64,000 nucleotides of DNA from the human T2T-CHM13v2.0 reference genome, Homo sapiens (GCA_009914755.4 CP086569.2:17856001-17920000), one strand, 5' to 3'; shown: positions 33,790 to 33,945, numbered from the stretch's first letter. Notes: generated from the sequence alone by a model not told the origin. Numbers and translations: made by a program.

Positions 33790-33945
33790 TTAGGCAGGTG
33801 CAAAAGTAATTGCGGTTTTTGCCATTAAAAGTAATGACATTGAAAGTAGTGGCAAAAACCACAATTACTTTTGTGGCTTTTGCAATTAAAAGTAATGCCA
33901 TTGAAAGTAGTGGCAAAAACCACAATTACTTTTGTGCCAACCTAA
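33790..33945. mobile_element. MADE1 (Hsmar1-derived MITE) with a roughly 59-bp internal tandem duplication. It is a palindromic hairpin carrying the miR-548 family sequence
   Basis: ITRs ttaggcaggtgcaaaagtaattgcggtttttgcc ... ggcaaaaaccacaattacttttgtgccaacctaa, against the MADE1 consensus ttaggttggtgcaaaagtaattgcggtttttgccatt..aatggcaaaaaccgcaattacttttgcaccaacctaa. The internal block aaaagtaatg(a/c)cattgaaagtagtggcaaaaaccacaattacttttgtg is present twice. Confidence 0.85.

What the first reader, a model, noticed from the sequence alone, without database searches (positions are those of the whole stretch)
33790..33945. MADE1 MITE with an internal duplication carrying an exact miR-548c-5p-type sequence: a candidate miR-548 family hairpin
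The element has the MADE1 terminal inverted repeats (ttaggcaggtgcaaaagtaattgcggtttttgcc ... ggcaaaaaccacaattacttttgtgccaacctaa). MADE1 palindromes are the evolutionary source of the miR-548 family. The 5' arm here contains AAAAGTAATTGCGGTTTTTGCC at 33802-33823, which is identical to my recollection of miR-548c-5p/miR-548o-5p. Unusually, the 80-bp palindrome is enlarged to 156 bp by a roughly 59-bp tandem duplication of its 3' half. That duplication creates two alternative stem partners (..ggcaaaaaccacaattacttttgtggc.. and ..ggcaaaaaccacaattacttttgtgcc..) for the same 5' arm. It lies about 1.6 kb upstream of an L1PA 5' UTR whose antisense promoter points toward it.
Basis: partly seen in the sequence, partly recalled or inferred. 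Interest (0 to 1): 0.5.

Follow-up and report, generated by a model that had tools for sequence, protein, structure and literature searches.

The report
Duplicated MADE1 transposon fossil, not a microRNA
This is an old, dead copy of the small human transposon MADE1, enlarged by two internal duplications; it matches miR-548 microRNAs only because those microRNAs are themselves MADE1 sequence, and its over-long hairpin fits a microRNA precursor worse than ordinary MADE1 copies do.

Summary
Positions 33790-33945 are a 156-bp MADE1 (Hsmar1-derived MITE). Its 5' arm carries the exact 22-mer of miR-548c-5p/o-5p/am-5p at 33802-33823. A full-length L1PA starts 1.59 kb downstream on the + strand.

Corrections:
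- The tandem duplication is 61 bp (33810-33870 / 33871-33931, 4 differences), not about 59 bp.
- An older 15-bp loop duplication sits inside both units, so 80+15+61 = 156.
- The two 3' arms are not real alternatives. The 5' arm pairs with the distal arm at P = 0.95-0.999, giving one hairpin with 61 paired positions on the + strand.

The microRNA reading is weak:
- The 22-mer is simply the MADE1 consensus. It occurs in 11 of 45 unrelated copies.
- Rfam mir-548 scores 45.8 bits against a threshold of 90. That is lower than all 19 ordinary MADE1 copies tested (59-98 bits).
- The stem above the expected Drosha site has 51 paired positions, against about 22 in a canonical precursor.
- No locus-specific small RNA sequence appears in the searched literature.

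The best-documented residual property lies in the DNA. Positions 33797-33815 are a perfect 19-bp SETMAR-binding core, found in only 763 of 10,854 human Hsmar1 repeat ends.

Verdict: an ordinary repeat fossil of a known kind, low interest.

The parts
33788..33789 (.). Left TA target-site duplication of the mariner-type insertion
   Evidence: Read directly from the sequence. TA immediately precedes TTAGG.
33790..33945 (.). Whole MADE1 (Hsmar1-derived MITE) copy of 156 bp. It is a long imperfect palindrome.
   Evidence: The arms differ from the consensus at 5 of 68 positions. Folding gives -74.7 kcal/mol (+) and -75.3 kcal/mol (-), z about -11.
33790..33823 (+). 5' terminal inverted repeat arm (34 nt, 2 mismatches to consensus)
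33797..33815 (+). Perfect 19-bp Hsmar1 TIR core, the SETMAR DNA-binding site GGTGCAAAAGTAATTGCGG
   Evidence: 0 mismatches. The motif and its role come from PMC9062482 and PMC8327481.
33802..33823 (+). 22-mer identical to miR-548c-5p, miR-548o-5p and miR-548am-5p; also the MADE1 consensus
   Evidence: PMC5831925; consensus
33799..33821 (-). 23-mer identical to miR-548h-3p (CAAAAACCGCAAUUACUUUUGCA) on the - strand
   Evidence: Sequence; mature sequence from PMC10671384
33824..33853 (.). Older 15-bp tandem duplication in the loop (ATTAAAAGTAATGAC / ATTGAAAGTAGTGGC). It is repeated at 33885-33914 in the second 61-bp unit.
33810..33870 (.). 61-bp tandem duplication, unit 1
33871..33931 (.). 61-bp tandem duplication, unit 2 (4 differences from unit 1)
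33851..33872 (-). First copy of a 22-mer identical to miR-548d-5p (AAAAGUAAUUGUGGUUUUUGCC), on the proximal partial 3' arm
   Evidence: Sequence; PMC10671384 and PMC8942954
33912..33933 (-). Second copy of the miR-548d-5p-identical 22-mer, within the distal 3' arm
   Evidence: Sequence
33912..33945 (+). Distal, complete 3' terminal inverted repeat arm (3 mismatches to consensus). It is the thermodynamic partner of the 5' arm.
33920..33938 (-). Degenerate SETMAR core with 3 mismatches
33946..33947 (.). Right target-site duplication, decayed from TA to CA
   Evidence: Read directly from the sequence
35531..41585 (+). Context only: a full-length, defective L1PA. Flanking duplication AAAAAAGCAGCTT at 35504-35516 and 41586-41598. 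Its antisense promoter would transcribe the - strand toward the MADE1.

Best explanation
This is a neutral fossil of a MADE1 element, the 80-bp non-autonomous derivative of the mariner transposon Hsmar1.

History. The element inserted at a TA dinucleotide. It later gained two successive internal tandem duplications, first 15 bp in the loop and then 61 bp spanning the loop and the inner parts of both arms. Slippage of this kind is expected in a palindrome (inferred). The four differences between the 61-bp units suggest the second event is tens of millions of years old (inferred, with a wide error).

Mobility. The element can no longer move. No active Hsmar1 transposase exists, and the ends have diverged.

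microRNA resemblance. Its match to miR-548c-5p on the + strand, and to miR-548d-5p (twice) and miR-548h-3p on the - strand, is inherited MADE1 consensus sequence. It is not evidence that the locus is a microRNA gene.

RNA behaviour. If read through, either strand would fold into one long imperfect hairpin with about 57-61 paired positions. That is roughly twice the optimal pri-miRNA stem, so it should be a poor and imprecise Microprocessor substrate (inferred from published rules, not tested).

Most plausible residual activity. This lies in the DNA: the perfect 19-bp TIR core at 33797-33815 is a high-affinity site for the domesticated transposase domain of SETMAR. The sequence match is shown here; occupancy is inferred.
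For: - MADE1 identity: both ends match the consensus with 2/34 and 3/34 mismatches. Unrelated copies average 6.8 of 68. The 19-mer is expected 0.02 times by chance. The flanks read TA...CA.
- Duplication anatomy: period 61 at 93% identity, plus a nested period 15 present in both units. The lengths add up: 80+15+61 = 156.
- Enlarged copies are not rare. Four of the 45 paired element records in a background sample exceed 82 bp. They come from three loci, because palindromic L101 is recorded on both strands. L101 has a 25-bp duplication that also yields two 3' arms.
- The 22-mer is the consensus and is exact in 11 of 45 background copies. Piriyapongsa and Jordan counted 124 genomic BLAT duplicates of hsa-mir-548c.
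- Structure: a single hairpin. The distal partner has P = 0.95 (+) and 0.999 (-). The two-hairpin state is -55 against -74.7 kcal/mol. Above the expected Drosha site 51 positions are paired on the + strand and 45 on the - strand, against 26 for consensus MADE1. Canonical pri-miRNAs have stems of about 35 bp and pre-miRNAs about 22 bp (PMC7668254).
- Rfam: no hit reaches the gathering threshold anywhere in the window. mir-548 scores 45.8 and 44.1 bits against a threshold of 90. Nineteen generic copies score 59-98 bits, including duplication-bearing copies at 76-78 bits.
- SETMAR: the 19-bp motif and the dependence of ChIP signal on motif fidelity come from PMC9062482 and PMC8327481. Only 763 of 10,854 hg38 repeat ends have 0 mismatches. 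Pairs of one perfect and one degenerate end are typical, at 85% of pairs.
Against: - Expression could not be examined. No small-RNA, CAGE or ChIP data were available, and the genomic address of the window is unknown.
- A few pri-miRNA helper motifs are present. There is a CNNC at +17 downstream of the predicted 3p end on the + strand, and a basal UG at -14/-13 on the - strand.
- The lower stem of 10-12 paired positions is close to that of genuine mir-548 precursors.
- Early work suggested that the basal junction alone can direct Drosha. Some processing of a transcribed copy therefore cannot be excluded.
- The - strand stem is nearly perfect, with 24 consecutive pairs, and that strand faces an L1 antisense promoter.
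- Retention of an unmutated CpG inside a perfect 19-mer, in an element this old, could hint at constraint. It could equally be luck.
Confidence: 0.8

Rival explanations
1. One reading: a genuine, unannotated miR-548 family gene. The element would be transcribed as a read-through or from the L1 antisense promoter. Drosha would cut about 13 bp above the basal junction and Dicer would measure 22 nt. The products would be miR-548c-5p from the + strand, or miR-548d-5p and miR-548h-3p from the - strand.
For: - The mature-identical sequences are exact on both strands.
- The hairpin is very stable (z about -11).
- The lower stem of 10-12 paired positions resembles real mir-548 precursors. There is a CNNC at +17 on the + strand and a UG at -14 on the - strand.
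- The L1 5' UTR is oriented so that its antisense promoter faces the element.
- Known mir-548 genes arise from either MADE1 strand through read-through transcription (PMC1784062).
Against: - The stem is about twice the canonical length, and no apical loop lies about 22 bp above the cut.
- The Rfam mir-548 score is half the threshold and lower than all 19 generic MADE1 copies.
- The exact 22-mer is the consensus and is common. Thousands of MADE1 repeat ends exist, against about 75 annotated precursors.
- The 5p/3p combinations do not match annotated precursors. The c-5p precursor pairs with c-3p CAAAAAUCUCAAUUACUUUUGC, and d-5p pairs with d-3p CAAAAACCACAGUUUCUUUUGC. Other members were checked from memory only.
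- No locus-specific small RNA string occurs in the searched literature.
- MirGeneDB curators doubt the whole family.
Confidence: 0.05
2. A functional SETMAR docking site. The perfect 19-bp TIR core recruits SETMAR, a histone methyltransferase fused to the Hsmar1 transposase domain. SETMAR then modestly represses or otherwise modulates nearby transcription. The RNA hairpin would be irrelevant.
For: - The core has 0 mismatches at 33797-33815, and the partner end has 3 mismatches.
- Only 7% of human repeat ends are perfect.
- ChIP signal and repression scale with motif fidelity.
- Pairs of one perfect and one degenerate end are the usual configuration (PMC8327481).
- The structural basis of 19-bp recognition is known, and 4,433 ChIP peaks hold sites with 2 or fewer mismatches (PMC9062482).
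Against: - Occupancy at this locus is unknown. Only 11.3% of repeat ends were bound in one study.
- The neighbourhood is repeat-rich. No exon was recognised among ORFs of 110 aa or more, so there may be nothing to regulate.
- Binding does not imply a selected function.
- A perfect 19-mer can survive by chance in a fraction of copies.
Confidence: 0.12
3. A long-hairpin, endo-siRNA-like or ADAR-substrate locus. The duplication would turn a microRNA-sized palindrome into double-stranded RNA of about 60 bp. Dicer would then dice it from the open end into two or three successive duplexes, or ADAR would edit it, rather than Drosha processing it.
For: - The hairpin has 61 paired positions with small internal loops on the + strand. 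The - strand has 24 consecutive pairs at the base.
- Piriyapongsa and Jordan proposed MITEs as a link between siRNAs and miRNAs.
Against: - There are no expression data.
- Somatic mammalian Dicer handles long hairpins poorly (general knowledge).
- The upper part of the hairpin is interrupted by 4x4 and larger internal loops.
Confidence: 0.03
4. An artefact or a different architecture: an assembly error, a chance palindrome, or two MADE1 copies nested or in tandem.
For: Palindromes and tandem repeats are prone to mis-assembly.
Against: - The two units differ at 4 positions, so they are not a collapsed or expanded read artefact.
- The junction at 33865-33880 lacks any terminal TTAGGTTGG/CCAACCTAA sequence. 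A nested or tandem insertion would carry one.
- The chance expectation is negligible.
Confidence: 0.01

Closest known systems
MADE1 (Hsmar1-derived MITE, Tc1/mariner superfamily)
   Same: - The terminal inverted repeats are within 2-3 mismatches of the consensus.
- It sits at a TA target site.
- It has no coding capacity.
- It is palindromic.
- It keeps the 19-bp transposase/SETMAR core.
   Different: - It is 156 bp rather than 80 bp, because of nested 15-bp and 61-bp tandem duplications.
- The right TA flank has decayed to CA.
- Length variants do occur elsewhere, at 99, 105 and 154 bp in the background sample. This particular junction was found nowhere else.
hsa-mir-548c, hsa-mir-548o/o-2 and hsa-mir-548am (Rfam RF01061)
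   Same: The 5p 22-mer is identical. All derive from MADE1.
   Different: - The 3' arm sequence differs: CAAAAACCACAAUUACUUUUGU here, against c-3p CAAAAAUCUCAAUUACUUUUGC.
- The hairpin is about twice as long.
- The covariance-model score is 45.8 bits against a threshold of 90.
- There is no expression evidence.
hsa-mir-548d-1/-2 with antisense hsa-mir-548aa-1/-2, and hsa-mir-548h/548z
   Same: - The - strand carries miR-548d-5p exactly (twice) and miR-548h-3p exactly.
- The + strand 3' arms share the first 20 nt of miR-548aa/548t-3p.
- Like those loci, both strands could in principle give hairpins.
   Different: The arm combination of d-5p with h-3p matches none of those precursors. The structure is duplicated.
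L101 (metagenome contig contaminant): a MADE1 with a 25-bp internal duplication
   Same: An internal tandem duplication creates two 3' arms for one 5' arm.
   Different: - It is only 105 bp.
- It still scores 77.8 bits on the mir-548 model.
- It has no loop duplication.
High-fidelity SETMAR-bound Hsmar1 repeat ends
   Same: It has a perfect 19-bp core paired with a degenerate partner, the commonest paired configuration.
   Different: Occupancy and any effect on transcription are untested here.

Membership tests
MADE1 / Hsmar1 MITE | Both ends match the Hsmar1/MADE1 terminal inverted repeat consensus | tested here: met
   There are 2/34 and 3/34 mismatches to a consensus rebuilt from 28 independent copies. 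The 19-mer is exact, with 0.02 matches expected by chance.
MADE1 / Hsmar1 MITE | TA target-site duplication | tested here: inconclusive
   The left flank is TA and the right flank is CA. This fits one T-to-C substitution but is not an intact duplication.
MADE1 / Hsmar1 MITE | Two paired inverted repeats around a short non-coding spacer, with no transposase ORF | tested here: met
   The extra 76 bp is fully explained by the 15-bp and 61-bp tandem duplications.
mir-548 microRNA precursor family (Rfam RF01061 / miRBase mir-548) | Covariance-model score at or above Rfam's gathering threshold (90 bits) | tested here: not met
   The scores are 45.8 bits (+) and 44.1 bits (-). No gathering-level hit exists in the window. 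Generic MADE1 copies score 59-98 bits.
mir-548 microRNA precursor family (Rfam RF01061 / miRBase mir-548) | Contains a sequence equal to a family mature microRNA | tested here: met
   It holds c-5p on the + strand, and d-5p and h-3p on the - strand. The test does not discriminate, because these are the MADE1 consensus.
mir-548 microRNA precursor family (Rfam RF01061 / miRBase mir-548) | Canonical pri-miRNA geometry: a stem of about 35 bp, and about 22 bp from the Drosha site to an apical loop | tested here: not met
   The + strand has 61 paired positions in all. Above the expected cut 51 are paired on the + strand and 45 on the - strand, and the terminal loop is 6 nt. The rule comes from PMC7668254.
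mir-548 microRNA precursor family (Rfam RF01061 / miRBase mir-548) | Small-RNA reads of about 22 nt from both arms with a 2-nt offset, dependent on Drosha and Dicer | not testable with these tools
   No small-RNA data were available. Locus-specific strings are absent from the searched paper texts.
mir-548 microRNA precursor family (Rfam RF01061 / miRBase mir-548) | An annotated precursor at this genomic position | not testable with these tools
   The genomic address is unknown. An indirect check of the arm pairs against published mature sequences gave no match, but part of that comparison rests on memory.
SETMAR-bound Hsmar1 TIR sites | The 19-bp core GGTGCAAAAGTAATTGCGG with few or no mismatches | tested here: met
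   There are 0 mismatches at 33797-33815.
SETMAR-bound Hsmar1 TIR sites | ChIP occupancy by SETMAR | not testable with these tools
   Published ChIP tables use hg38 coordinates, and the window could not be placed on hg38.

The most novel reading that the evidence does not exclude
The 61-bp duplication might have turned a microRNA-sized MADE1 palindrome into a 'double-decker' hairpin. When transcribed on the - strand from the neighbouring L1 antisense promoter, it would be diced into two or three successive duplexes. These would include miR-548d-5p/h-3p-type species. This would be a young, primate-specific small-RNA locus intermediate between a microRNA and an endo-siRNA.
Probability: 0.03. Interest if true: 0.35.

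Novelty: already known. Interest (0 to 1): 0.1.

Why it matters
It matters little. The case shows that an exact match to a miR-548 mature sequence inside a MADE1 copy says nothing about microRNA function, because the mature sequences are the transposon consensus. It also shows that the Rfam mir-548 model mostly detects MADE1 itself: 5 of 19 random copies pass its threshold.

If the locus did produce small RNAs, it would add one more member to a large, poorly conserved and disputed family. The perfect SETMAR core is the feature most worth a look by anyone holding ChIP data.

Tried and rejected
- Junction search. I scanned metagenome contigs and genome contigs for the duplication junction, allowing degenerate CpG-decay positions. 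There were no matches. The background MADE1 sample also lacks the junction and the loop duplication. So there is no sign of a transposed subfamily. Human coverage in these collections is sparse, so this is weak negative evidence.
- Literature search. I looked for locus-specific RNA and DNA strings (the 3p candidate, the junction and the loop). There were no hits.
- Alternative fold. Pairing of the 5' arm with the proximal 3' arm is rejected at equilibrium, with P of about 1e-8. It could exist only briefly during transcription.
- Nested or tandem insertion of two MADE1 copies. This is rejected because no internal terminal sequence is present.
- Assembly artefact. This is rejected because the two units have diverged.
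- Host gene. I tried to identify one from ORFs of 110 aa or more. Only L1, ERV and Alu-derived ORFs appeared, so the locus could not be compared with the host-gene list of mir-548 loci.
- tRNA scan and the Rfam gathering-threshold scan: nothing found.

Full report
**1. What is in the sequence**

Positions 33790-33945 read TTAGGCAGGTGCAAAAGTAATTGCGGTTTTTGCC...GGCAAAAACCACAATTACTTTTGTGCCAACCTAA. The flanks are TA on the left and CA on the right.

The 19-mer GGTGCAAAAGTAATTGCGG occurs with 0 mismatches at 33797-33815. It occurs with 3 mismatches on the opposite strand at 33920-33938. Shuffled sequence predicts 0.02 matches, and there is no other copy in the 64 kb.

I rebuilt a consensus from 28 independent MADE1 copies (section 3). 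Against it, the two 34-nt arms differ at 2 and 3 positions. Those copies average 6.8 of 68. This is therefore an ordinary MADE1, the 80-bp MITE derived from Hsmar1.

**2. The internal duplication**

The repeat finder and Tandem Repeats Finder agree on a period of 61 bp. The units are 33810-33870 and 33871-33931, at 93% identity with 4 differences and a TRF score of 226.

Each unit holds three pieces:
- the inner 14 nt of the 5' arm;
- the whole loop;
- the inner 20 nt of the 3' arm.

The loop itself is lengthened by a 15-bp tandem duplication (ATTAAAAGTAATGAC / ATTGAAAGTAGTGGC, 33824-33853). Both 61-bp units contain it, so it is the older event. The lengths add up exactly: 80+15+61 = 156.

The junction carries no terminal TTAGGTTGG or CCAACCTAA sequence. 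This rules out two nested or tandem elements. The four differences between the units rule out an assembly artefact. They also suggest an age of tens of millions of years (inference from about 6.6% pairwise divergence; very wide error, and one difference is at a CpG).

**3. A background set of MADE1 copies**

The duplication junction, written with degenerate CpG-decay positions, is absent from the metagenome and prokaryotic genome collections.

A scan for a generic 18-mer of the MADE1 end returned 120 contaminant contigs. I used these as a background sample, and found the following:
- There are 45 paired element records, with a modal length of 80 bp.
- Four records exceed 82 bp (99, 105, 105 and 154 bp). 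They represent three loci, because palindromic L101 is recorded on both strands.
- L101 has a 25-bp internal duplication that likewise gives two 3' arms.

Enlarged MADE1 copies are thus uncommon but not exceptional. The particular junction and loop duplication seen here are unique within this sample.

**4. The microRNA resemblance**

The 22-mer at 33802-33823 equals miR-548c-5p, miR-548o-5p and miR-548am-5p as printed in PMC5831925.

The - strand carries further exact matches:
- miR-548d-5p, twice (reverse complement of 33851-33872 and of 33912-33933);
- miR-548h-3p, once (reverse complement of 33799-33821).

The + strand 3' arms share the first 20 nt of miR-548aa/548t-3p.

None of this discriminates the locus from other copies:
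- The 22-mer is the consensus of both MADE1 arms (Rfam consensus; empirical consensus).
- It is exact in 11 of the 45 background copies. That sample is biased, because one arm was required to hold the 18-mer.
- Piriyapongsa and Jordan reported 124 genomic duplicates of hsa-mir-548c.
- The human genome holds 10,854 Hsmar1-type repeat ends, against about 75 annotated precursors.

**5. Structure**

Either strand folds into a single long hairpin. The energies are -74.7 kcal/mol (+) and -75.3 kcal/mol (-), with z about -11.

In the Boltzmann ensemble the 5' arm pairs with the distal 3' arm with mean probability 0.95 (+) and 0.999 (-). The proximal arm has a probability of about 1e-8. The best state with two separate hairpins is -55 kcal/mol. 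The 'two alternative partners' therefore exist in sequence but not at thermodynamic equilibrium. The proximal pairing could form only briefly during transcription.

I measured the stem from the position where family 5p species begin.

| Hairpin | Paired positions below the site | Paired positions above the site | Terminal loop |
|---|---|---|---|
| Window, + strand | 10 | 51 | 6 nt |
| Window, - strand | 12 | 45 | 6 nt |
| Consensus MADE1 | not comparable (arbitrary flanks) | 26 | 4 nt |

Published descriptions give pri-miRNA stems of about 35 bp, Drosha cleavage about 13 bp from a junction, and pre-miRNA stems of about 22 bp (PMC7668254). The duplicated element is about twice too long above the cut.

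Two minor features favour processing. There is a CNNC at +17 on the + strand and a UG at -14/-13 on the - strand.

**6. Covariance-model test**

No Rfam family reaches its gathering score anywhere in the window. In permissive mode mir-548 (RF01061) scores 45.8 bits on the + strand. It aligns the 5' arm to the proximal arm with a broken lower stem. The - strand scores 44.1 bits. The threshold is 90.

Nineteen background MADE1 copies score 59-98 bits. Five pass the threshold. Two duplication-bearing copies score 76-78 bits.

Two conclusions follow:
- The model mainly recognises MADE1 as such.
- This element fits it worse than any ordinary copy tested.

**7. Is it an annotated or reported microRNA?**

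I could not place the window on a reference genome. ORFs of 110 aa or more are all L1-, ERV- or Alu-derived, so no host gene could be named for comparison with the list.

An indirect check is possible. Precursors with c-5p or d-5p have 3p arms that differ from those here. Other members were compared from memory only.

Locus-specific strings were not found in 8 million full texts. MirGeneDB curators regard the miR-548 class as repeat sequence of questionable authenticity.

**8. A better-documented property**

The 19-mer at 33797-33815 is the exact recognition element of the SETMAR (Metnase) DNA-binding domain. A crystal structure and 4,433 ChIP peaks with sites of 2 or fewer mismatches support this (PMC9062482).

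In hg38 only 763 of 10,854 repeat ends are perfect. ChIP signal falls as mismatches increase. Pairs of one perfect and one degenerate end make up 85% of paired ends (PMC8327481).

The element here has exactly that configuration: 0 mismatches at one end and 3 at the other. Occupancy at this locus is inferred, not shown. A biological effect is doubtful in this repeat-rich region.

**9. Context**

The L1 claim is correct. A full-length L1PA of about 6.05 kb lies on the + strand from about 35531 to 41585.
- Its ORFs are broken.
- It is flanked by AAAAAAGCAGCTT at both ends.
- Its 5' UTR is about 92% identical to the L1HS 5' UTR as I recall it (the reference sequence is from memory).

Its antisense promoter would transcribe the - strand toward the MADE1, 1,586 bp away. 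Whether it is active is unknown.

**10. Verdict**

The MADE1 and miR-548 relationship is textbook (PMC1784062).

The candidate-microRNA interpretation is not supported by any discriminating evidence:
- It fails the Rfam threshold.

The best explanation is a neutral MADE1 fossil with nested slippage duplications that retains a perfect SETMAR site (confidence about 0.8). Interest is low.

Noticed in passing
window 33768-33782 and 33979-33993: A 15-nt inverted repeat (TTGTATGAAAAATAT / ATATTTCTCATACAA, 14 of 15 complementary) brackets the MADE1 asymmetrically, 7 nt upstream and 33 nt downstream. Only 2 of 2000 shuffles and 0 of 200 real flank pairs from the window reach this. It does not extend further and is unexplained. 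It would enclose the MADE1 hairpin in a weak outer stem in long transcripts.
   Followed up: partly
window 35504-35530 and 41586-41600: The L1PA insertion has a flanking duplication AAAAAAGCAGCTT at both ends. Fourteen extra bases (GAAATCTTACTGTC) lie between the left copy and the L1 5' end. Part of them (ATCTT) also follows the right copy, so the true duplication may be about 18 bp with a 3-bp indel.
   Followed up: partly
L-series loci (for example L104, L062, L052, L073, L005): Ordinary MADE1 copies in contaminant metagenome contigs pass the Rfam mir-548 gathering threshold on one or both strands, in 5 of 19 loci. The family model therefore cannot separate microRNA genes from plain transposon copies. 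The same scan shows that many public metagenome contigs are mammalian contamination.
   Followed up: partly
window 5355-9418: ERV-like pol and env ORF fragments lie on the + strand. A 54-bp tandem repeat of 4.7 copies precedes them at 5355-5606.
   Followed up: no
window 43054-43215 and 62227-62541: Tandem repeats rich in CCAATCAGC / GCTGATTGG lie in opposite orientations. They resemble LTR12 (HERV9 LTR) U3 repeats, an identification made from memory only.
   Followed up: no
window 54888-55326; 30517-30898; 35355-35395: Three simple repeats: a 22-bp minisatellite of 20 copies, a TGATGA-rich minisatellite, and a (CA)n microsatellite just upstream of the L1.
   Followed up: no
window about 20260-24000, - strand: A second L1, with its 3' end and ORF2 fragments, lies on the opposite strand. 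Further L1 and Alu fragments lie elsewhere. The window is 61% A+T, and no coding exon was recognised.
   Followed up: no
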